Below are positions 6,898 to 64,000 of a DNA stretch of 64,000 nucleotides, piece by piece. Position 1 is the first letter of the stretch. Every line of letters starts with the position of its first letter. The stretch comes from Isurus oxyrinchus (Eukaryota): assembly GCA_026770705.1 (NCBI GenBank), contig JANJGN010000026.1, positions 33,480,001-33,544,000 of the forward strand, read 5' to 3'. The notes below the pieces were generated by a model. That model did not search any database and had not been told where the DNA came from. It saw only the letters and a program-made list of their open reading frames with translations. Position numbers and translations under genes: made by a program.

Positions 6898-7380
6898 ATG
6901 GAGGTGAAACTCTGTCTGACTCTAATTATTGGCCTGAACACAGGTCGGTCTAATTGAACCTCCCTACTAAATTCCGCAGCCCTCATATTATTTCCCATTT
7001 CCAGCTCCAAGTGATGATTCTCTTTTTGTTACCCCATCTAAGCCTCTTTGTGTCTGTTATTTATTTTCAGAGATGAGTAACGGAGACTCAGTGTCACAGT
7101 CAGAACAAGGACTCGAAGGAAAAGAGGGTGAAGATTCAGCAATATCCTGCATTTACTCTGTATCGATTTCAGCTGCAGGCTATGGCTTGTTCTGGTATCG
7201 CCAGTATTCACACCCAGCTCCTCAATACCTTCTCAGAGCCGATAGTTATGGGTTTAATGAGACGGCTCCCAGCTTTGAACACTTCAGCGGGGATCTCAAC
7301 ATGACACAAAGCACTTTTCACTTGTCCATGAAAGATTTGAAGATCACAGACAATGCCGTGTATTACTGCGCGCTGAGGAC
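6898..7380 (+). CDS. TRAV/DV: Functional TCR alpha/delta V segment (leader 6898-6943, V exon 7071-7380)
   Basis: Leader MEVKLCLTLIIGLNT with phase-1 GT..AG intron. V exon DSVSQSEQ..AISCIYS..LFWYRQY..APQYLL..DNAVYYCALRT has C23, W41 and C104. Confidence 0.93.
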
Positions 7381-11047: not shown

Positions 11048-12083
11048 AGACTCTGTGCACAGTAATAGACCGCGGTGTCAGACAGCCGTATCTCTGAGAT
11101 AGTCAATCGGTACGACTTGTCTGTCTGCTGGACTGTATCAGAAAACCGGCTCTGAGCGAAATCCGCCTTAAATTCTGAACCTCCGCCCTTGTGCCTCTGG
11201 ACTGCAAACTCGGGCTGTCTGCCTGCGTACTGCCGGTACCAGAATAAGAAAGAAGCATCGTCGGTATAGGTGCAGTTTAAAGTGGCATCTTCTCCCTCTG
11301 TCTGTGTGAGTAAGGGTTGAGTAACAGACCCTCCATCGCTCAGATCTGGAACACATGATTAAAGAAAGCAGAAATCAGCGATTAAAACTTCAACTGAACA
11401 GAACTGAGAGTGAAAATTCACAGTCAGTGTGACATAGATCAAATGTAATTTCGAGCACGCAACAGTTCATTCGGCCCAAATGGTCCATCTCTGTGTTTCC
11501 AACCACGAAGAGCATCCTCGCTCTCTCAGCAAATCCTTCCAACCTTTTCACCCTCTTCCGCTTATCCCATTTCCCTTCATTACAGCTAGACGTTTTGTCT
11601 CAGCTGCTCCTTGTGGCACTGAATTCCTTATTCTAAAAATTAAAGATAGTTGTTGTGAACCCCCTATTGAGTCTTTTCCGTGACTCTTATATTTATAACC
11701 CATACTTTAGGAATCCTCCACAAATGGAATTGTATTTTCCATCGAACTCCTTCATCATTTTGAAGACCTCTATTCAGTTCCCCTTCAGTTTCTCTTTACC
11801 AGAGGACAGGCCCCCAGTCTGTACAGTTCTTGCTGAATTCTAGTACCATCATTGTAATTGGGTTTCTTTTCATTTTATTTTGTGGCCTGTGTTCGTCTGA
11901 TTAAAGACCAGAACATTTCACCATAAATCCGAGTGTGGTCCGATCAAGATCCGAAACATGGTTAACATGAATTTTCTGCTTTTCAAATTGATTCTCCCAG
12001 AAATTAAGCCCCCTTTTTCAAATTTTAAACTTCTTACCGACAATGAATGCCACCCAAACTACAGCGAGAACGGAGAGCTGCAT
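11048..12083 (-). CDS. TRAV/DV: Functional TCR alpha/delta V segment (leader 12083-12038, V exon 11345-11048)
   Basis: Leader MQLSVLAVVWVAFIV then GTAAG, intron about 0.69 kb. V exon DLSDGGSVTQPLLTQTEGEDATLNCTYTDDASFLFWYRQYAGRQPEFAVQRHKGGGSEFKADFAQSRFSDTVQQTDKSYRLTISEIRLSDTAVYYCAQS is open with no stops. Not captured by the ORF track. Confidence 0.9.
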
Positions 12084-22700: not shown

Positions 22701-22924
22701 AGATTTGTTTCTCTAGGTGTGTTCAAATACTTGTTCAGTAACAATGAATATCACCGTTATAATATCATGGACTTCAAAATCACTGAGGCAAAATGCAGAA
22801 TCGTCCTTAGCTCAATAGTTAACTGATGCTTGAGGGAAATCTCAGTGGAGTCACTGTTCCGACTGTCATGTCAGGTCAGTTTTGTGTTTCCCGGTTACAA
22901 TAATAAGCCATGGTTCGCCAGTGT

Positions 22925-23370
22925 CTAAAGCTGAACCTACCCCCCTATAAGGACGCTAAATATCGCCCAGCTCTGGGTGTTTAACTTCACTGGAAGGCAG
23001 AACGCCACCCTTGGTCTCTAAAGCTGAGCCATTCCCCCTATAAACACACTGACCGTGGTCCAGCTCAGGGTGTTTACATTCACTGACAGCCAGAGCATCG
23101 CCCTCCGTATCTAAAGCTGAACCATTCCCCCTATAGGGACCCTGACCGTATTCATGCTATGGGTGTTTAAATTCTCTGACAGCCAGACCACCACCCTCGG
23201 TCCCTAAATCTGAGCCATTCTCCCTATAAGGACACTAAATATCGCCCAGCTCTCGGTGTTTAAATTCACTGACAGCCAGAACACTACCCTCGGTCCCTAA
23301 AGCTGAGCCATTCCCCCCATAAAGACACTTACCATAGACCAGGTCGGTGTCTTTACATTCAGTGAGGACC
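22925..23370. repeat. 93-bp tandem repeat, about 4.8 copies
   Basis: Unit starts CTAAAGCTGA/CTAAATCTGA at 22925, 23018, 23111, 23204 and 23297 (exact 93-bp period). Confidence 0.9.
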
Positions 23371-25738: not shown

Positions 25739-26280
25739 TGTTTTTGTACGAGTCTCCCTCTGGTTCCTGTCACTGTGTCTCCCAGCCCTCAGTAATACAC
25801 CGCGCTGTCAGACAGCTGCAGGTCACGGATGGTGAAATTCCCCTCACTTTTCAAAGTGTCGAGAGATGCAGAAAATCGAGCCCCCACGCCCTCTGCTCTG
25901 AAAATATTTCCGTATTTTGGGATGTACATCAAGAATGTGGGGACTTTACCCCGGTCATGACGGTACAGCTGTAAGTAAGGTGTACCAGCAGTGGTGGAAT
26001 AGCTGTAATAAATGGTCACCGAGTCTCCTTCAAATTGCATTGCTGGTTCTGGTTCCTGTGAGACTGAGTCTGCACCACTAACACCTGCAGAAATTAAAAA
26101 TAAAGAGCTTAAAGGTTATATTACTTTAGCCCAGTTTGTCATGTTGAGTGAGGGATTCTGAATAGAAATAAAATTGAATTGAAAGAATGATACCTGCAAG
26201 AGGAAGACTGTGTAACGTGCGGACTTACCGGGTAAGAGAGCTGCAGCTGTGAGAAATGAATAAAAGGTAAAACCCAACAT
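25739..26280 (-). pseudogene. TRAV/DV: TCR V with a single nonsense codon at Cys104 and an intact 23-RSS
   Basis: Leader MLGFTFYSFLTAAALLP|GTAAG (26280-26229). Exon from 26084: GVSGADSVSQEPEPAMQFEGDSVTIYYSYSTTAGTPYLQLYRHDRGKVPTFLM..SDSAVYY* (TGA 25791-25789). RSS CACAGTG-23-ACAAAAACA (25777-25739). Confidence 0.88.
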
Positions 26281-30188: not shown

Positions 30189-30357
30189 NNNNNNNNNNNN
30201 NNNNNNNNNNNNNNNNNNNNNNNNNNNNNNNNNNNNNNNNNNNNNNNNNNNNNNNNNNNNNNNNNNNNNNNNNNNNNNNNNNNNNNNNNNNNNNNNNNNN
30301 NNNNNNNNNNNNNNNNNNNNNNNNNNNNNNNNNNNNNNNNNNNNNNNNNNNNNNNNN
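30189..30357. other. Assembly gap (N run)
   Basis: Continuous Ns. Confidence 1.
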
Positions 30358-40346: not shown

Positions 40347-40385
40347 GGTTTTTGTACAATGACTGCCGCATTTTGTCTCAGTGTG
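40347..40385 (-). other. 23-RSS
   Basis: CACACTG (40385-40379), 23 bp, ACAAAAACC (40355-40347). Confidence 0.9.
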
Positions 40386-40798
40386 AGGCTCAGCCGCACA
40401 GTAATAAACCGCGGCATCGGCGTTCCCCGTGTCTACAATGAGCAATTGGCCGCGTTTCTCCAACTCGGAAAGATTCAGTTCAAATCGTCGACTGCGCCCT
40501 TTGCTATTCGATATCTGCCTTATAATCCACTCCAGTCCCTGACCGGATTTCTGTCTGTACCAATGCATCACGTAGAATTCGGACAGCTCGGAGCTGCAGT
40601 CCATCTGCACCGAATCCCTGCTCTGGACTGTTTTCGAAGCGGGAGATTGAAGCACACGGTCCGAGAGACATCGACCTGGAAAAATATTCAGGGCATGAAA
40701 CACTGGAACAGAGAGATCAATAATGAAAAACTCACTCTGGGTCATTGGGTCACTGTCCTGTGCCTACCAGTTCGCATCGCCAAGATGACGGATAGCAT
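40386..40798 (-). CDS. TRAV/DV: TCR alpha/delta V segment with intact V exon (40675-40386) and a short 10-codon leader (40798-40768)
   Basis: Leader MLSVILAMRT|GTAGG. Exon RCLSDRVLQSPASKTVQSRDSVQMDCSSELSEFYVMHWYRQKSGQGLEWIIRQISNSKGRSRRFELNLSELEKRGQLLIVDTGNADAAVYYCAAEP. Confidence 0.82.
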
Positions 40799-43586: not shown

Positions 43587-43625
43587 GGTTTTTGTACAGC
43601 TGTCTCCGTGCTCTGTATCACTGTG
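43587..43625 (-). other. 23-RSS of supporting V-delta 1
   Basis: CACAGTG (43625-43619), 23 bp, ACAAAAACC (43595-43587). Confidence 0.95.
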
Positions 43626-43934
43626 CTGTGCGTTGACTCAGTGCACAGTAATACACAACGGAGTCGCTCAGTTGTAGTCTGGAGACAGTTAACCGGCTGA
43701 TTTTCTCAGCAGGATCGATCGAAGCAGAAATTCTCCCTCCCACAGCGTTTTCTTTATTTTCTTCTCCTGCAGTGTGTCTCTGAAGCAGATAATCCGGAGC
43801 CTGGCCGGGAGACTGACGGTACCAGTGTACTGTGTACTGACAGAACCTGACCGAATATTCACATCTTAAAGTAATGGTGTCACCGGCAGGATACGTTTGT
43901 ACAGGCGGATTCTGGGATATCATGGAACTGGAAT
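43626..43934 (-). CDS. TRDV: NAR-TCR supporting TCR-delta V segment (leaderless, CDR1 Cys)
   Basis: Acceptor CCTCCAG|AT. Exon DSSSMISQNPPVQTYPAGDTITLRCEYSVRFCQYTVHWYRQSPGQAPDYLLQRHTAGEENKENAVGGRISASIDPAEKISRLTVSRLQLSDSVVYYCALSQRT. Extra Cys in CDR1, no leader seen nearby, lies downstream of a NAR-TCR J. Confidence 0.92.
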
Positions 43935-46815
43935 CTGGAGGATAAAAAACCGAACATTATCTTTTAGTTTTGCCACTGTTTATCCAGCTAAATATATCAA
44001 TCACGTCAATAGCTCTGCTTTTTGCAGTAATTTTATTTGCTGGAAGCCTGTTTGAACCGTGTTCATTCTTACGAAATTATGAAGTGGGGAACTCTTCCAA
44101 TTAGGACTGCACTGTCTGAATTGGTGTTGGGTACAGATTCTATTGTAACTTTCAAACGGGTAATGGATCTCTGCTGGAAATATTAATAAAAATATAGAGC
44201 AATGGAGAAACTTCATGGGCAGTGGGAACAATTGGATTGCACTTTTAAAGGGTCAGCGCCTACACGATGGGCCGAATGTCATCCTTCCGTGCCGTATGAT
44301 TCCATTAATTATAATACATTCCCGTTTCTATTTTCCCTGGTGAGAGACAAACCCGAGGGAACATTTGATGTTCAGCGAGGCAACCAGTTTCCAAAAGAAA
44401 ACATGTTTGTCCGAGAGGAACACAGCTGTGCACAGCCAGATCCAACACAAACTGATGGGTATCATCAGCACCGATTGGGCAAAACCGAGAGTGAGCACAA
44501 GTGGTCAAAGGCCAATCATTTCCTGCGGTTTAGAAGTACACGGAAATTTCTATTTGCCTTTTGCTCTATTTCTCTATGTTCTATTAGTGTGTCCTATTTT
44601 CTCCAGTTCAGCTTAATTTCAAATATGTGCAATTAATTTTATTTTATTTCTTTAATTTCACATTCCCTTTATTTCACATTTTCTTTGTGCTGTTTGCGCT
44701 TATTGCAATCGTGGGAACTTGCCCCAAAGTCTCTCAGTTGTCGGTTGGGTTCAGTCTGTTCAGTTTCCGCAGTGGTTTTACTGTTACTCACTGGGAACTG
44801 CCTCTTCCGGCTCTCTGACAATTTCAATTCTTTCCGCACGTTAACTGATTGTCTCCCGGGTTCACTGGGTGGAGTTTTCTCTCAATTATCGAGGAAGAAG
44901 AATGCGGAAGAGGAATGGACCATTCAGCCTGTGTATATGATCAATTCCAGCCGCACCTCACCAGAAATCTAATTGACCATTTACATCCAGCTCCCTGTAT
45001 CAGTCTGTTCCGTTCTCCCTCCTGTATTCAAATAAATATATCAATAGCAACTGCTCCAACCACTCCCTGAGGCAGCAAGTTCCACACTCCGACCTGCCTT
45101 TGTTTAAATACATTTGTCTTAAATGATTTATTTGTTTTGTTCATGAATGTCATATGGTGACGGCTATTGATTTAGACTCAGCCATAAATGAGCAATTTAT
45201 CCACACTAAAACCAATTATTGTTTAAAATATTTCTATGGATTCTCCTTGTGGTTCTGTTTTCCAGAAAAAAGAGACCCAGCCTGTTCAATCTTCCCACAG
45301 AGATGTGGGAATTGTTGCTGATTTATTTTCTGAGGAGTGTAAGAAATTAAAGCAGAGAATCCGATCAATAGAAACAGGAGCCGCCATATCACTATTCAAA
45401 TCTGCTCAGACATTCAGTAATATTCTGGCTGATTTACAACCTCAACGTCACATTCCCGCACTCTCCCCATATCCCTGATCCTTTTAGCGTCCAAAAACTT
45501 ATCGAATATTGTCTTGAATGCACACAGGTTTTGAACACCCACCGCTCTCGGAGTTACACAATGCCACAGATTCACAGCAATGGCTCTACTGAAGATATTT
45601 TTTCCTTCTCAGTTCTAATGGATGATTCTTTATTCTGAAGCGGTGTCCCCGAGTTCTATATTCTTCAGTCTGGGGAAACTACGACCTAGAATTTGCCCTG
45701 TCGAGGCCCTTCAGTGTATCACATGTTTCCATGAGATCATCTCTCATTCTTCTAAACTCTAGGAAATATCAACCGAGAAGACTAAATCTCTTCCCATTGG
45801 ACAATCCCTTCATATCAGGAATCAGTCGGATAAACATTTGCTGCACCAATTCTATTACAGATTGATCTCTGTAAGGGGGCCAAACCTTCACAGCATTCCG
45901 GAGTGGAGTCTATTTCAGTCCTTCCCTCCATAAACCTCACCCACCTGGGGGTCGGATTGTACTTTGAAAGGCGCCCAGAAATCATCCAATCCCTCTCTCC
46001 CTTTCGATTAATTTTGTCTTGCTGGTTCTAAATGAGCATTCTCCTAGTTTATAATTGTTTCCTTATGTTTCTGTTCTCCTTCATAAGATTAATGCATCAT
46101 CTTCATTCTCTCACTGCACTGCGTTGCTTTAATTCACAGTAATCTGTGATACAGATAAATTACAGCAATCCCATCTCTCAAATATTTCCATTCAATATAG
46201 AGAAGCGTCTGCAGTTTCAAACTTTCACATTTCGGACTCAGGACGGGAAAGGAGAAGAGTGATTGGTTCTGCGAAGACAATTGAAAGAAATGGGGGGGAC
46301 AATGTCACTAATTGCAGTCACAGATTGTCCAATAATAAAATTCAACCTAGACTCATATCAGGGTCTCTTATAACTGAGGCCCATTGTGTCACTCGCCCGT
46401 TTCTTTCCCGGGTCAGGTATTGAACGAGCCGCTGCAGTTATCCGAATGGCCGCAGTTGTATTGAGTTTATTCACCGGGTACATCATTTACATTGCGCGGC
46501 TCGGACTGCAATCTGCTGCCCAGGGGAGAGCTCTGTGACCCCGCTTCCGAGCTCTAAGGGACAGACAGAACTTCCTCGGTCACAGTTAACACCGGGAGTG
46601 GAGTCCGGATTGCCGACAATCTCAGCTCGTTAAAAGCGATTCAGAGTGTGCGAGTCCGTGATGTTGATGTTGTCCCCGATGTGCCCGTTAAACCAATAAT
46701 GGTCCACATTCCGTCAACTCCCACATCCCCTCAAACTCCACTGATATCAATAATAAACTGACTGTGAACATTACACGGGACAGGCTGTAAGTCGGCGGAG
46801 TTTGGTGTTACTTAC

Positions 46816-46907
46816 CGGCTGTGACAGTCACCACTGTCCCCGATCCATCCCGATAGTCAGTAACCCACCACAGTGACACCGCTCTCAGTCTCCCCTGTAC
46901 AACAACC
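46816..46907 (-). CDS. NAR-TCR J segment (46868-46816) with 5' 23-RSS
   Basis: GGTTGTTGT-23-CACTGTG, then WVTDYRDGSGTVVTVTA and a phase-1 G|GTAAGT donor, in phase with the supporting V-delta exon. Confidence 0.92.
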
Positions 46908-47221
46908 AGGACTTCTCACCCTGCCGGAAAATCATCATCCGACAGTAGAAACTGCCCAATTATTCAGTGGATTTATATAAATTAACAATATTCAACCTTT
47001 CAAAGTCTCTGTCGTTTCAAACTGTTCTTTGTGAGGTCCTGAGCTCCGAGTAAATGGTCCCTGGAACGAGATGTTCGCTTGATATAAACTGAGAAAAATA
47101 TCAAAGAAATATAAATGAATGGTGGTAATTACAATGAAATGTAACCAGATTACAGCGAAAATAACATCAACCCGACAATTCACTATCCGGGCCCAGAGAA
47201 TTTATATTGCGATCGTGGAGA

Positions 47222-47294
47222 GGTATTTGCTCAGGTGTCTTCTACTGTGACTTTCCCATCCATCCACACAGTGTTACAAGTCAGTAAAAATCCC
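47222..47294 (-). other. NAR-TCR D segment (47266-47250, TGGATGGATGGGAAAGT) flanked by two 12-RSSs
   Basis: Plus strand: GGTATTTGC-12-TACTGTG, 17 bp, CACAGTG-12-AAAAATCCC. Lies between the NAR V and J. All three frames are open. Confidence 0.88.
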
Positions 47295-47620
47295 CCGGGT
47301 TCTTGGTGAAATTTGGGGACATTAGTTAAACAGCGGGCACTGCGGTTCCCGGTTGCAGCAGTTAGACCAGGATCACATCTGGTGTCAGGAGTTTGCAAAT
47401 GGGATCAGTCATTCCCAATCCCCACTCACTGACACCAATCCCAGGAAAGACATCACCATCCGCTCACATTCGGCATTTAAAAAGCTCAAGCTATTAACGG
47501 CAATAATCCAATCTTATTATAAACTAGTCTGTGAGGCAGACGGTGTGAGGCGGAACTGTGGGGGGTTTAACTGCAGAATTAACTCCGATTTCTCATTTGT
47601 TTCTGTGATAATCTGCAGTG

Positions 47621-47658
47621 AGTTTTTGTACCGTGTGAAGCCAAGACCCATCACTGTG
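47621..47658 (-). other. RSS of NAR-TCR V (22-bp spacer)
   Basis: CACAGTG (47658-47652), 22 bp, ACAAAAACT (47629-47621). Confidence 0.9.
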
Positions 47659-48132
47659 TTCTTTGCACTCGTACTGAGCTTGACAGTAATAGGTGGCGGT
47701 GTCTTCGACTCTCAATTCCCGAATTTCCAGCGAAAATGTCTTTTCTGCTTTATTCACCGACACAACAAATCTCCCCCCGCTGGAGATCCGCTTCCGCTCT
47801 GTCCCGGTCTGGTTTTGCCTGAAGAAATATCCATTTTCTAAATAATAATAGTAACCATTTAAAACACAGGTGATGGTGAGAGACTGACACTCCTTCCTGG
47901 TCACCGCTGCCGGGGTCTGTGTCACTGACTGACTGAAAGAGCCTGGAAATTAAACAGAGATAGTTTAATGGACCATCAGAGCCGAACCTCAGAACGGGGT
48001 TAAAACCCCGGACAGTGTCGGTAATTGGGATGGACTCGGGCGGCTTTATATTAACTCCACACAATGTCGGTTTGTTGATCGGTACTCACGGGGTACGCAG
48101 ACACACAGGATGAAAGCAAGGAGGATTCCCAT
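47659..48132 (-). CDS. NAR-TCR V segment (IgNAR-like V domain); leader 48132-48090, V exon 47942-47659
   Basis: Leader MGILLAFILCVCVP|GTGAGT. Exon SFSQSVTQTPAAVTRKECQSLTITCVLNGYYYYLENGYFFRQNQTGTERKRISSGGRFVVSVNKAEKTFSLEIRELRVEDTATYYCQAQYECKE has the VNAR-type FR2/CDR2 deletion and an extra FR1 Cys. Confidence 0.93.
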
Positions 48133-48149
48133 CGTTCTGCTGCCTGGAG

Positions 48150-48260
48150 CTGAGGGTTTATATGACAGGGAGCTGGAGACTGCAGCCCTGGACAGCACTG
48201 GGAGACCGGACCTCAGAGCTGGACTGAAATACTTTAGCGGGATCGAGTTTATTTGCACGG
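48150..48260 (-). promoter_or_regulatory. NAR-TCR V promoter (TATA and octamer-like motif)
   Basis: CATATAAACC about 25 bp upstream of the ATG. GTGCAAAT (7/8 match to ATGCAAAT) at 48258-48251. Confidence 0.45.
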
Positions 48261-48993
48261 GACAGTTTCGCTGAGATCATTGATGGGTCGCACGATTCCC
48301 GGGTCGCTGTCTAAGTGTTGCGTGAATAAGAGACAGGTTTTTAAAAGGAGGCTGCAATTTTCTGACTATTCATTTGGGCTGTGATTCGGATGTGAAAGCC
48401 CCTCCCACAACACTCTGGTGTACAGAGGTGGGGGATGGGAGCTTTTCTTTCCGCCAGTTGTGCTGCCACATTCCTTTCCCCACAGTGCTGAACTGGGAAG
48501 TCGGAGCATGTGTTTGTATTGGGTGGTGTTTGCCTGTGAGCTCAGGACACCGAGAGAAACCCCCGACTCGCTCTTATTGCAATATTCCGGAGATTTCCCC
48601 TGTCATTTAGCCAAATGGTTCCTGCACTAGCCCTGCGGTGGGTTACATGTTAAATGGTGCTTAATTTCAGCCACGTTTGACTTCCAAATTGGGAATATTC
48701 AGAATTTCTGTTTGCAGTCACTGAGAATGAATGAAACGACACTCGGGAGGACAATAGACATTCGGGGGGTGTCTTTAAAGATCACAGTCACTACCTTCTG
48801 TTCTGAAATCTGTTTATGGTGTATAATTATCTCTCAACCAGCAACAGCAACACTCAGTCTAATAAACCCCGTGACAAGGCCGATGTTCGAGGCTTCACAA
48901 AGCTGACAGCGGAGTTCGGGAAAATGCTGCTCAACATTGCGTACAGGGACGGAAAGGCCATTAAAGGGCGAAACGGAAATTAAGAACCGCAGC

Positions 48994-49318
48994 ACGTCGC
49001 ACAAACATGGCCGACAGTACGTCACAAAAACACGAACAACAGTGCGTCACACAAACCGGGCCGACAGTTTCGTCACACAAACATGGCCGACAGTACGTCA
49101 CACAAACATAGCCGACTGTACGTCACAAAAACATGATCGACAGTTTCGTCACACAAAGATGATCGACATTACATCACACAAACCTGGCCGACAGCTTTGT
49201 CACAACAACATTGCCGACAGTACGTAACGCAAACATGGCCAATAGTACTTCATACAAACATGGCCAGCTGTACGTCACACAAACACGATCGACAGTACGT
49301 CTCACAAACATGGCCGAT
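48994..49318. repeat. 25-26 bp minisatellite, about 13 copies
   Basis: Consensus CGTCACACAAACATGGCCGACAGTA, with GTCAC at 49021, 49046, 49072, 49097, 49122 and onward. Confidence 0.9.
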
Positions 49319-61578: not shown

Positions 61579-62745
61579 GACATAGCAGGCTGTGCATATT
61601 TGATTTGTATGCGGGTACGAAGACTCGATTTATACGAAAAGTGACTTCAAAAATAAACATTCGGTCTTAATGGACAAAAGCGATGGATTTGTACAGGCGC
61701 CAATGTGCGGAAAATTCTTGCAGAGTGCCGCCCACACTCCCTGTGTCATATAGAGTGAGCTTTCCCAGCCGCAGTGAACTGTTGGAGCCTCTGCCTTCCA
61801 CGACCCATTCACCAAGGAAGCGAATCGAAACTCAACCTCCTGTTCTTCCTCTCTACCCTTCTACCAAATGGAAACAGTTTATTTTGCTCTAAAATAAATC
61901 TAATAATCCAGTTCTGTTGAAGGGTCATGAGGACTGGAAACGTCAACTCTTTTCTTCTCCACCGATGCTGCCAGACCTGCTGAGTTTTTCCAGGTAATTC
62001 TGTTTTTATTTTTTGTTTTGATCTACTTGGCTCAGAGACACATGGTTTTGAACACTCGATCAGATCTACCCTGAACCTTCCATTCTCTATGGAGAACAAA
62101 CCCAGTTTCCCCAATCTATCTAATTAACTGAAGTTCTGCATCCCTGGGACGATTCTGGTCAACTTCCCTGCCACTTTTCTAAACCCTTCACATCCTTCCT
62201 AAAGTGCGATTCCCGGAAGTGGACACAATGCTCCAGTTGAGGGGGAACCAGTGCTTTCCTAAGAGGATCAGTAGCATTTCCTTTCCTTTGGACTCCATGC
62301 CGCTGAAACCGATGATCCCGGATGTTTAAGCGCCACTTTCTCAGGCTGTCAGGCCACCTTCAACCATTTATGCCCAAATAGAGCATATCGTTTGTTGAAG
62401 AATGGATAATTGAATGAATTATTTTAGCAGGAGTATTGTAGGCGACTCGATTTATAAAAATACTTAAGGCTCTAAGGAGCCAGAAGGAATGCGCGAACTT
62501 GATGGGTTTAATGGTTTTTTGCTGTGCTAGAACATTATAAACTCAATTGTAAATACATTCGTGGAGATTAGGTGATTCCCTCCACCCCACCCTCCCCCCA
62601 CCCCCTTCTATGTGTGTGCCTGTGTGTATATATGTGTTTGTGTATATGTATTTGTGTGTATACCTGTGTTTGTGTGTATGTGTGTGCTCCTTTCAACTTA
62701 ATCCCGAAAATGGACAACAATTTGGACTCTTTCCGTGCGTTGTAT

Positions 62746-62934
62746 CACGGTGTGTCTGTAATCCCATTATGTTCAAGTTTTTGTACGGCTCTCTCCGTGC
62801 TCTGTATCACTGTGTCTGTATTCCCACCATGTTCAGGTTTTTGTATAGCTCTCTCCGTGTTCTGTATCACTGTGTCTGTAATCCCACCATGTTCAGGTTT
62901 TTGTATAGCTCTCTCCGTGTTCTGTATCACTGTG
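62746..62934 (-). repeat. Tandem 60-bp array of 23-RSSs (3 intact and 1 degenerate)
   Basis: Heptamers CACAGTG at 62934-62928, 62874-62868 and 62814-62808. Nonamers ACAAAAACC, ACAAAAACC and ACAAAAACT at 62904-62896, 62844-62836 and 62784-62776. All spacers are 23 bp. A fourth heptamer CACCGTG at 62752-62746 lacks a good nonamer. Confidence 0.93.
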
Positions 62935-63240
62935 CTGTGCGCCGACTCAGTTGGCAGTAATACACAGCGGAGTCGCTCAGTTGGAGTTTGGAGATATCTA
63001 ACTGGCTGATTTTCTCGGCAGAATCGATAGAAGCAGAAATTCTTCCCCCGGCAGCGTTTTCTTTATTCTCCTCTCCTGAAGTGTGCCTCTGAAGCAGATA
63101 TTCCGGAGCCTGTCCGGGGGACTGACGGTACCAGTGCACTGTGTACTGACAGAATCCTGAGTATTCACAGTTTAAAGTAACGGTGTCACCGGCAGGAGCG
63201 GTTTGTAGAGGCGGATCCCGGGAAATTACGGAACTGGAAT
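62935..63240 (-). CDS. TRDV: Second NAR-TCR supporting TCR-delta V segment (leaderless, CDR1 Cys)
   Basis: CCTCCAG|AT, then DSSSVISRDPPLQTAPAGDTVTLNCEYSGFCQYTVHWYRQSPGQAPEYLLQRHTSGEENKENAAGGRISASIDSAEKISQLDISKLQLSDSAVYYCQLSRRT, open. Its intron (63241-64000) is homologous to 43935-44660. Confidence 0.92.
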
Positions 63241-64000
63241 CTGGAGGATAGAAAAATGAACATTTTATTTTTGTTAAGCCTCTGTTTGTCCAGCTGAATT
63301 CAATCGCGTGAATAGCTCTGCTTTTTGCAGTAATTTTATTTGCTAGAAGCCTGTTTGAACCGTGTTCACTGTTATTGAAATATGATCAAATAGGGAATGA
63401 GGTGATATTTTAGTTTACATGTCGAAATCTTGCGAAGGGGACTGCACTGTCTGAATTGGTGGTGGGAACAGCTTCCATAGTAACTTTCAAACGGGTAATG
63501 GGTCTGTGCTGGAAATGTAAATACAAATATAGAGCGATGGAGAAAATTCATGGACAGTGGGAAAAATTGGATTGCACTTTTAAAGGGTCAGCACCTACAC
63601 AAGGGGCCGAATGTCAGCATTCCGTAGATAATTCTATGAATTATATTACATTCCCGTTTCTATTTTCCTTGGTGAGACACAAACACGAGGGAGCATTTTA
63701 TGCTCAGCGAGGCAACCAGTTTCCAAAAAAAACACGTTTGTTGCAGAGAAACACAGCTGTGTGGCATCACTGAGCACAGCAAGATCCAACACAAACTGAT
63801 GGGCATCATCAGCACCGATTGGGCAAAACAAAGAGTGAGAACCAGTGGTCAAAGGTCAATCATTTACTGCGCTTTTAACTACTCCGGGATTTCTCTCTGC
63901 CTTTTGCTGTATTTCTCTGTTCTATCAATAGGGTCGTATTTTCTCCAGTTCAGCTTAATTTCAAATATGTGCAATTAATTTAATCTTATTTCTTTAATTT

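What the first reader, a model, noticed from the sequence alone, without database searches (positions are those of the whole stretch)
43587..48132. Complete, apparently functional NAR-TCR cassette (doubly rearranging TCR-delta)
Seen, in order on the minus strand: leader, VNAR-like V, 22-RSS, 12-D-12, 23-RSS, J, about 2.9 kb intron, leaderless V-delta, 23-RSS. The J donor (phase 1, G|GTAAGT) and V-delta acceptor (AG|AT) splice in frame to give ..VTVTA-DSSSMISQ. The NAR V has an extra FR1 Cys (RKECQSL) and the V-delta an extra CDR1 Cys (RFCQY). Known: this is the NAR-TCR architecture of cartilaginous fish, with two V domains each made by its own VDJ event and a proposed inter-domain disulfide. 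The system is known, but this germline cassette with its small D and J is invisible to ORF-based annotation.
Basis: partly seen in the sequence, partly recalled or inferred. Interest (0 to 1): 0.75.

Follow-up and report, generated by a model that had tools for sequence, protein, structure and literature searches.

The report
Shark double-V T-cell receptor cassette
This is an intact-looking inherited copy of a known shark T-cell-receptor gene (NAR-TCR), which likely stacks an antibody-like domain on an ordinary receptor domain after two separate DNA-joining steps; it is an ordinary member of its family, apart from one extra residue beside a conserved cysteine.

Summary
Observation confirmed. 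On the minus strand lie a leader, a VNAR-like V with a 22-RSS, one 17-nt D with 12-RSS on both sides, a 23-RSS and J, a 2,881-nt intron, and a leaderless V with a 23-RSS. All frames are open and the J-to-V splice is in frame. The published sequence hallmarks of NAR-TCR are met. A great white shark gene 82% identical to this V is hand-labelled NARTCR in a published table. Use is not shown: there is no transcript, no D-delta, J-delta or C-delta in the window, and no genome was held. The supporting V has a one-residue CDR1 insertion found in none of 57 relatives. 'Invisible to annotation' is overstated, because 57 of 59 RefSeq-type relatives model both V domains, under wrong names. Side lead: a second supporting V at 63240-62935 carries stacked 23-RSS copies, and such duplications appear in contigs of all 4 organisms laid. 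The scan found both the cassette and the RSS stack before, on other DNA. Verdict: new member of a known kind, interest 0.27.

The parts
48157..48162 (-). TATAAA, 30 nt before the leader ATG (possible TATA box of the NAR V promoter)
   Evidence: motif match only
48090..48132 (-). Leader exon, 14 codons plus 1 nt, donor GTGAGT
   Evidence: near-identical leaders in relatives
47943..48089 (-). Leader intron, 147 nt
47659..47942 (-). NAR-TCR V exon: VNAR-like, FR1 (a-b loop) Cys, Phe in place of the FR2 Trp, germline Cys near the 3' end
47621..47658 (-). V RSS, 22-nt spacer
47267..47294 (+). 5' D RSS, 12-nt spacer, nonamer with 3 mismatches
47250..47266 (-). Single D segment, 17 nt, open in all three frames
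   Evidence: a paralogous V-to-D joint lands inside it
47222..47249 (-). 3' D RSS, 12-nt spacer
46869..46907 (+). J RSS, 23-nt spacer
46816..46868 (-). NAR-type J (DGSGT motif), phase-1 donor G|GTAAGT
43935..46815 (-). J-to-supporting-V intron, 2,881 nt, no credible leader exon
43626..43934 (-). Leaderless supporting V (TCR-delta type) with CDR1 Cys and a one-codon CDR1 insertion near 43848
43587..43625 (-). Single 23-RSS of the supporting V, perfect heptamer and nonamer
62935..63240 (-). Second supporting V, 80% identical. Probably the 3' half of a neighbouring cassette that runs off the window end; its intron matches 83% over 1.1 kb
62727..62934 (-). Stack of three intact 23-RSS plus one decayed copy behind the second supporting V, period 60-62 nt

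Best explanation
This is an unrearranged, open-frame NAR-TCR cassette of a shark, in which RAG likely joins the NAR V to its own D and J and separately joins the leaderless supporting V to D-delta and J-delta segments elsewhere, so that splicing would give one three-domain TCR-delta chain. Shown by sequence: the parts, their order, 12/23-compatible RSS pairs inside the cassette (V22 with D12, D12 with J23), the in-frame splices and the two extra cysteines. Shown in paralogues: contigs of related organisms hold V-to-D and V-to-J joints at the predicted places. Inferred from the family literature: the second rearrangement, splicing to C-delta, pairing with TCR-gamma, single-domain antigen binding by the NAR V, and a disulfide between the NAR V FR1 Cys and the supporting V CDR1 Cys. 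The supporting V has no leader, so it could reach the cell surface only behind a rearranged NAR V. Both joins would have to be productive on the same chromosome.
For: Best PDB matches of the first V are shark VNARs (E 3e-20 to 1e-13). Published hallmarks are a leader, an a-b loop Cys and no Trp of WYRK in the NAR V, and no leader plus a CDR1 Cys in the supporting V (PMC1845163 passages); all are met. Of 59 relatives found with the first V alone, 57 also hold the supporting V; FR1 Cys is in 58 of 59 (the exception is truncated), Trp in 0 of 59, and CDR1 Cys in 55 of 57. P0008 (82% to this V) is LOC121270138, labelled 'NARTCRdV' in PMC12227049 table S1. Six of the 59 models run on into a TCR constant region. 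That region is 57% identical to a catshark protein whose name and species fit the table row 'IgWVTCRD', so it is probably C-delta (LOC id not confirmed). Contig joints in paralogues: 47258 to 47673 (V to D, 24 letters between, X11) and 46846 to 47672 (V to J, X5; letters between not known). No Ig or TCR constant exon in the window, and only this one J-like motif.
Against: No transcript or somatic joint of this copy was seen. The supporting V has 4 residues before the CDR1 Cys where 57 of 57 relatives have 3, and the codon is absent from laid paralogue contigs of X2, X5 and X11. This could shift the proposed disulfide. The D RSS are weaker than those of V and J (3 mismatches each). The V end has a Cys codon where laid paralogue contigs read Tyr (47666). 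Eight of 14 other V exons inventoried in the window carry stop codons, and they lie on both strands. In white shark, 7 NARTCR rows are scattered over 8.4-17.1 Mb of one chromosome, so some cassettes may lie too far from D-delta/J-delta to be used. The relatives' joins to a constant region are gene predictions, not cDNAs.
Confidence: 0.9

Rival explanations
1. It is a NAR-TCR cassette by descent but a silent or crippled copy. It looks intact because it is young, yet it is out of reach of D-delta/J-delta, or its CDR1 insertion prevents a stable two-domain pairing. This keeps the family assignment and replaces only the 'functional' part of the best explanation.
For: The CDR1 insertion is unique against 57 relatives. 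The neighbourhood is rich in pseudogenes (8 of 14 other V exons with stops). Cassettes are spread over about 9 Mb in white shark. Many paralogues exist in the same organism.
Against: There is no stop, frameshift or broken splice site in leader, V, D, J or supporting V, and the V, J and supporting-V RSS have 0-1 mismatches, while neighbouring V genes have decayed. The insertion is exactly one codon.
Confidence: 0.3
2. The V-D-J is an IgNAR antibody cluster, and the downstream V is an unrelated neighbour.
For: The V is VNAR-like, the J is of DGxGT type, and IgNAR, IgM and TCR genes share this chromosomal region (PMC12227049 passages).
Against: The Trp that the solved VNARs keep is absent and the FR1 Cys is present. 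There is one D, whereas IgNAR clusters have up to three (PMC5192425 passage). No constant exon was found in the 43 kb downstream (tested with TCR constant queries only). The J-to-V pairing is conserved in 57 of 59 relatives.
Confidence: 0.02
3. The 43934 exon is a conventional V-delta used with its own leader.
For: An ATG-started hydrophobic stretch lies at 44216, 282 nt upstream, and is kept in the paralogue at 63551.
Against: Its only phase-1 donor matches the consensus at 3 of 6 positions, against 6 of 6 for the NAR V leader and the V at 26085. The scan was an imperfect control: it found no candidate for 2 of 10 control V exons, and only weak ones for several others. The exon belongs to the supporting-V clade with the CDR1 Cys.
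Confidence: 0.03

Closest known systems
NAR-TCR (doubly rearranging TCR-delta of cartilaginous fishes; Criscitiello et al. 2006, paper not held, seen through passages of PMC1845163, PMC3457774, PMC5931798, PMC12227049, PMC2275272)
   Same: Leader plus VNAR-like V with a-b loop Cys and no FR2 Trp; its own D and J; leaderless supporting V-delta with CDR1 Cys; two separate sets of RSS.
   Different: One extra residue before the supporting V CDR1 Cys; a germline Cys at the V end; a single RSS behind the supporting V, where a neighbour and many paralogues have a stack. Expression of this copy is not shown.
Great white shark LOC121270138 (XP_041031388.1), labelled 'NARTCRdV' in PMC12227049 table S1, and basking shark models P0005, P0023, P0040
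   Same: 78-85% identity to the NAR V; the closest supporting V domains are 82-88% identical. P0023 runs into the same downstream V neighbour as the window's V at 40385.
   Different: These are automatic gene models that bridge the RSS with invented introns and carry unrelated names.
IgNAR V-D-D-D-J-C cluster
   Same: VNAR-type domain and a closed, cluster-type V-D-J.
   Different: IgNAR has up to three D and its own constant exons and keeps the FR2 Trp. Here there is one D and the J splices to a TCR V.
Marsupial and monotreme TCR-mu
   Same: Three extracellular domains with an antibody-like V on a supporting V. The best natural fold matches of the modelled relative P0028 are TCR-mu chains 7k0z and 7k0x (TM about 0.3, domain angles differ).
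   Different: Convergent rather than orthologous (PMC3457774 and PMC2275272 passages). It uses a VH-like domain, and its supporting V is germline-joined in marsupials.

Membership tests
NAR-TCR | N-terminal V most similar to IgNAR V | tested here: met
   VNAR chains fill nearly all of the top ranks
NAR-TCR | NAR V has a leader, an a-b loop Cys and lacks the Trp of WYRK | tested here: met
   against PMC1845163 passages
NAR-TCR | Supporting V-delta lacks a leader and has a CDR1 Cys | tested here: met
   the Cys is shifted by a one-residue insertion, and the leader scan is imperfect
NAR-TCR | Germline signals for two separate V(D)J events | tested here: met
   V22, 12-D-12, 23-J, then supporting V with a 23-RSS; V-D and V-J joints in paralogues
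NAR-TCR | In-frame splice of the NAR J onto the supporting V | tested here: met
   (sequence only); same junction in relatives' models
NAR-TCR | Orthology to curated NARTCR genes | tested here: met
   P0008 = LOC121270138 'NARTCRdV', 82% identical
NAR-TCR | Rearranges to D-delta/J-delta and is expressed with C-delta | tested here: inconclusive
   no such segments in the window, no genome held; 6 of 59 relatives' predicted models reach a probable C-delta
NAR-TCR | Inter-domain disulfide between the two extra Cys (proposed, not solved) | not testable with these tools
   the model gives no coordinates; co-conservation of both Cys in 54 of 57 relatives is indirect
IgNAR cluster | Up to three D segments and its own IgNAR constant exons | tested here: not met
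   one D; J is followed by a TCR V; no constant exon matched, TCR queries only
IgNAR cluster | FR2 Trp kept in the V | tested here: not met
   Phe at that position

The most novel reading that the evidence does not exclude
The stacked 23-RSS behind NAR-TCR supporting V genes is an old, selected device that raises or retries the second rearrangement of a promoterless V: a join at a distal RSS leaves proximal ones for another attempt. This window holds a natural test pair 19 kb apart, one supporting V with a single RSS (the finding) and one with three intact copies. The stack is real. Duplication joints occur in contigs of all 4 organisms laid, and the linker-plus-second-heptamer is read through in 3 Hemiscyllium models and 1 Mustelus model, of 70 stored proteins. 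I found no description of it in three targeted searches of the held library, but the primary NAR-TCR papers are not held. No use of a distal RSS is shown. In this species the V frame hits a stop in the first heptamer, so a distal join would be unproductive unless redone.
Probability: 0.3. Interest if true: 0.6.

Novelty: new member of a known kind. Interest (0 to 1): 0.27.

Why it matters
NAR-TCR is a known but poorly mapped receptor whose ligands are still unknown (PMC7615758 passage). A base-exact germline map with one D and IgH-like 12-D-12 signals lets junctions in shark repertoires be read correctly, and it shows that public gene models of these cassettes are misnamed and wrongly spliced. 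It does not change the picture of the system. The more interesting leads lie beside the finding: stacked RSS behind supporting V genes, and probably germline-joined NAR-TCR V copies. [quoted passage not shown]

Tried and rejected
Whole genome: none held, so the distance and orientation to D-delta, J-delta and C-delta are unknown. Sequencing runs: no RNA holder listed. Three guessed-RNA runs of the same species label were laid at 80% and gave no spliced or rearranged joint and no cover of the supporting V exon. They held only unspliced paralogue pieces over promoter, leader and intron, which is no evidence either way. Complex prediction of the two V domains of relative P0028 gave no verdict (score 0.07). 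The AlphaFold2 model of P0028 (mean pLDDT 73, V domains mostly 85-96) came without coordinates, so the Cys-Cys distance was not measured. PDB sequence search of the supporting V was dominated by multi-domain antibody constructs and was uninformative. No nurse shark NAR-TCR cDNA turned up in three protein searches, so I built no tree against named cDNAs. The primary paper and the 2021 review are not held. The elephant shark genome supplement had no NAR-TCR hit. The first literature search for RSS stacks returned mostly unrelated uses of 'RSS'. My J-RSS read-through count was polluted by leader matches and is dropped. The frame-0 linker scan matched only CDR3 tryptophans and is dropped. A second D was rejected. 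Summed contig depth was not used as a copy number.
Full report
Observation. The leader is 48132-48090 (phase 1, GTGAGT) and the V exon 47942-47659, followed by a 22-RSS. A 17-nt D at 47266-47250 has a 12-RSS on each side. A 23-RSS precedes J at 46868-46816 (G|GTAAGT). A 2,881-nt intron leads to a second V at 43934-43626 with a perfect 23-RSS ending at 43587. All coding parts are open, the D has no stop in any frame, and J spliced to the second V is open only in the expected frame. The 801-nt V-J interval holds 4 RSS sites (5 scan hits), and none of 1000 dinucleotide shuffles gave more than 2 hits. A relaxed scan shows no second D.

Identity. The first V matches solved shark VNARs best, and both exons are Pfam V-set. 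PMC1845163 (passages) gives the family hallmarks: the NAR V has a leader, an a-b loop Cys and no Trp of WYRK, and the supporting V has no leader and a CDR1 Cys. All are met. A search with the first V alone gave 59 proteins among 118 candidates, from 13 sharks, rays and skates. Of these, 57 also contain the second V, although it was not in the query. FR1 Cys is present in 58 of 59, Trp in 0 of 59 and CDR1 Cys in 55 of 57. The CDR1 Cys is better kept than the canonical B-strand Cys of that domain (46 of 57). One hit, P0008, 82% identical, is LOC121270138, hand-labelled 'NARTCRdV' in table S1 of PMC12227049 (supplement part 1 and a term search read). The closest supporting V domains come from basking and white shark, so the source is probably a lamniform relative (inference). 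Six of the 59 models continue into a TCR constant region. It is 57% identical to a catshark protein whose name fits the table row 'IgWVTCRD', so it is probably C-delta; PMC2275272 (passage) says NAR-TCR uses TRD constant regions.

Mechanism. Shown: the RSS geometry allows V22-D12 and D12-J23 deletional joins inside the cassette. The supporting V's 23-RSS cannot pair with the cassette's 23-RSS J under the 12/23 rule (established knowledge), so it needs a 12-RSS partner elsewhere. The window has no further J-like motif and no TCR constant exon. Partly shown: contigs of related organisms carry joints at the predicted places. These are V to the 3' part of D with 24 letters between (X11, depth 22.6) and V to J (X5, depth 522, letters between not given). 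X1 has two further joints from the V end into the D-J spacer, which may be deletions. The depths resemble other single pieces of the same runs, so these are probably inherited, pre-joined paralogues. Germline-joined genes are known in shark Ig clusters (PMC5192425 passages). Inferred from the literature: the second rearrangement, pairing with TCR-gamma and an unpaired antigen-binding NAR V (PMC6795676 and PMC3457774 passages), and the putative inter-domain disulfide. A model of the full-length relative P0028 folds both V domains with high confidence, and its best natural structural matches are marsupial TCR-mu chains. The Cys-Cys distance could not be read.

Against function. No transcript of this copy was seen. 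The supporting V has one more residue before its CDR1 Cys than 57 of 57 relatives. Paralogue contigs in three runs lack that codon, and the exact-match contigs of X1 and X2 end at 43840, just short of it, so the insertion rests on the assembly. The V end has a Cys codon where laid paralogues read Tyr. Eight of 14 other V exons inventoried in the window have stops. White shark NARTCR rows span 8.4-17.1 Mb among IgM clusters, so reach to D-delta/J-delta is not guaranteed. I put the chance that this copy is silent at about 0.3.

Annotation claim. The cassette is not invisible. [quoted passage not shown] They bridge the RSS with what look like invented introns: 7 of 59 contain the heptamer read-through HSD[GDR]. 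I saw no D annotated as such in these models.

Beyond the finding. A second supporting V at 63240-62935 (80% identical, with 1.1 kb of matching intron) is followed by three intact 23-RSS and one decayed copy at a 60-62 nt period. The finding's own V matches this unit for 10 of 11 nt past the nonamer and then runs into a repeat, so it may have lost a stack. Joints that go back over the RSS occur in X1 (several variants) and in all 4 runs, which are 4 organisms. The linker-plus-second-heptamer appears in P0043, P0044, P0045 and P0061 above the best shuffle score. P0038 shows two RSS read-throughs at a shorter spacing. I saw this before consulting the scan's own notes, which record the same stack in other genomes. 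Those notes are unchecked and are not independent support. Three searches found no description, but the primary NAR-TCR papers are outside the library and may report germline RSS details, including the number of D segments.

Papers seen. Passages only: PMC1845163, PMC3457774, PMC5931798, PMC6795676, PMC3149040, PMC5192425, PMC2275272, PMC7615758. PMC12227049: passages plus table S1 (part 1 and a term search). PMC3964593: supplement term search only, no hit. Criscitiello 2006 and Ott 2021: not held, nothing read. The RSS consensus, the 12/23 rule and the statement that 12-D-12 is the IgH pattern are recalled.

Verdict. A real, well-formed NAR-TCR germline cassette and a new member of a known kind. 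Family assignment about 0.95, use of this copy about 0.65-0.7. Interest 0.27.

Noticed in passing
window 62727-62934 (-): Three intact and one decayed 23-RSS in tandem (period 60-62 nt) behind a second supporting V. The V frame stops in the first heptamer, while the +1 frame is open through the intact units.
   Followed up: yes
window 62935-64000 (-): Second supporting V, open, with an intron homologous to that of the finding; its NAR V-D-J would lie beyond the window end.
   Followed up: partly
joints 47258-47673 (X11), 46846-47672 (X5), 47208-47671 and 47035-47678 (X1): Contigs of paralogues that skip from the V end into D, J or the D-J spacer: probable germline-joined or deleted cassettes.
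   Followed up: partly
window about 43848 (-): One-codon insertion in CDR1 of the supporting V, not present in 57 relatives.
   Followed up: partly
window 47665-47667 (-): [quoted passage not shown]
   Followed up: no
window 44216 and 63551 (-): ATG-started hydrophobic stretch about 280-310 nt upstream of both supporting V exons, without a good splice donor; possibly a decayed leader or part of a repeat.
   Followed up: partly
window 1-57000, both strands: At least 13 further TCR alpha/delta-type V exons, many with 23-RSS, in mixed orientation; 8 have stops. Those at 7076-7380 (+), 11048-11346 (-) and 40386-40703 (-) are open.
   Followed up: partly
window 40386-40703 (-): The basking shark model P0023 runs into the same V in another frame, so this neighbour order is conserved.
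   Followed up: no
Scyliorhinus, Hemiscyllium, Heterodontus and Mustelus models: The canonical B-strand Cys of the supporting V is Trp in 8 and Tyr in 3 of 57 relatives, while the CDR1 Cys is mostly kept.
   Followed up: no
window 22924-23365, 48986-49317, 30189-30357: A 93-nt tandem repeat, a 25-nt minisatellite about 850 nt upstream of the leader, and a 169-nt assembly gap.
   Followed up: no
X21, X22, X24 over window 47927-48397: Unspliced paralogue contigs over promoter, leader and intron in guessed-RNA runs; could be germline transcripts or DNA.
   Followed up: no
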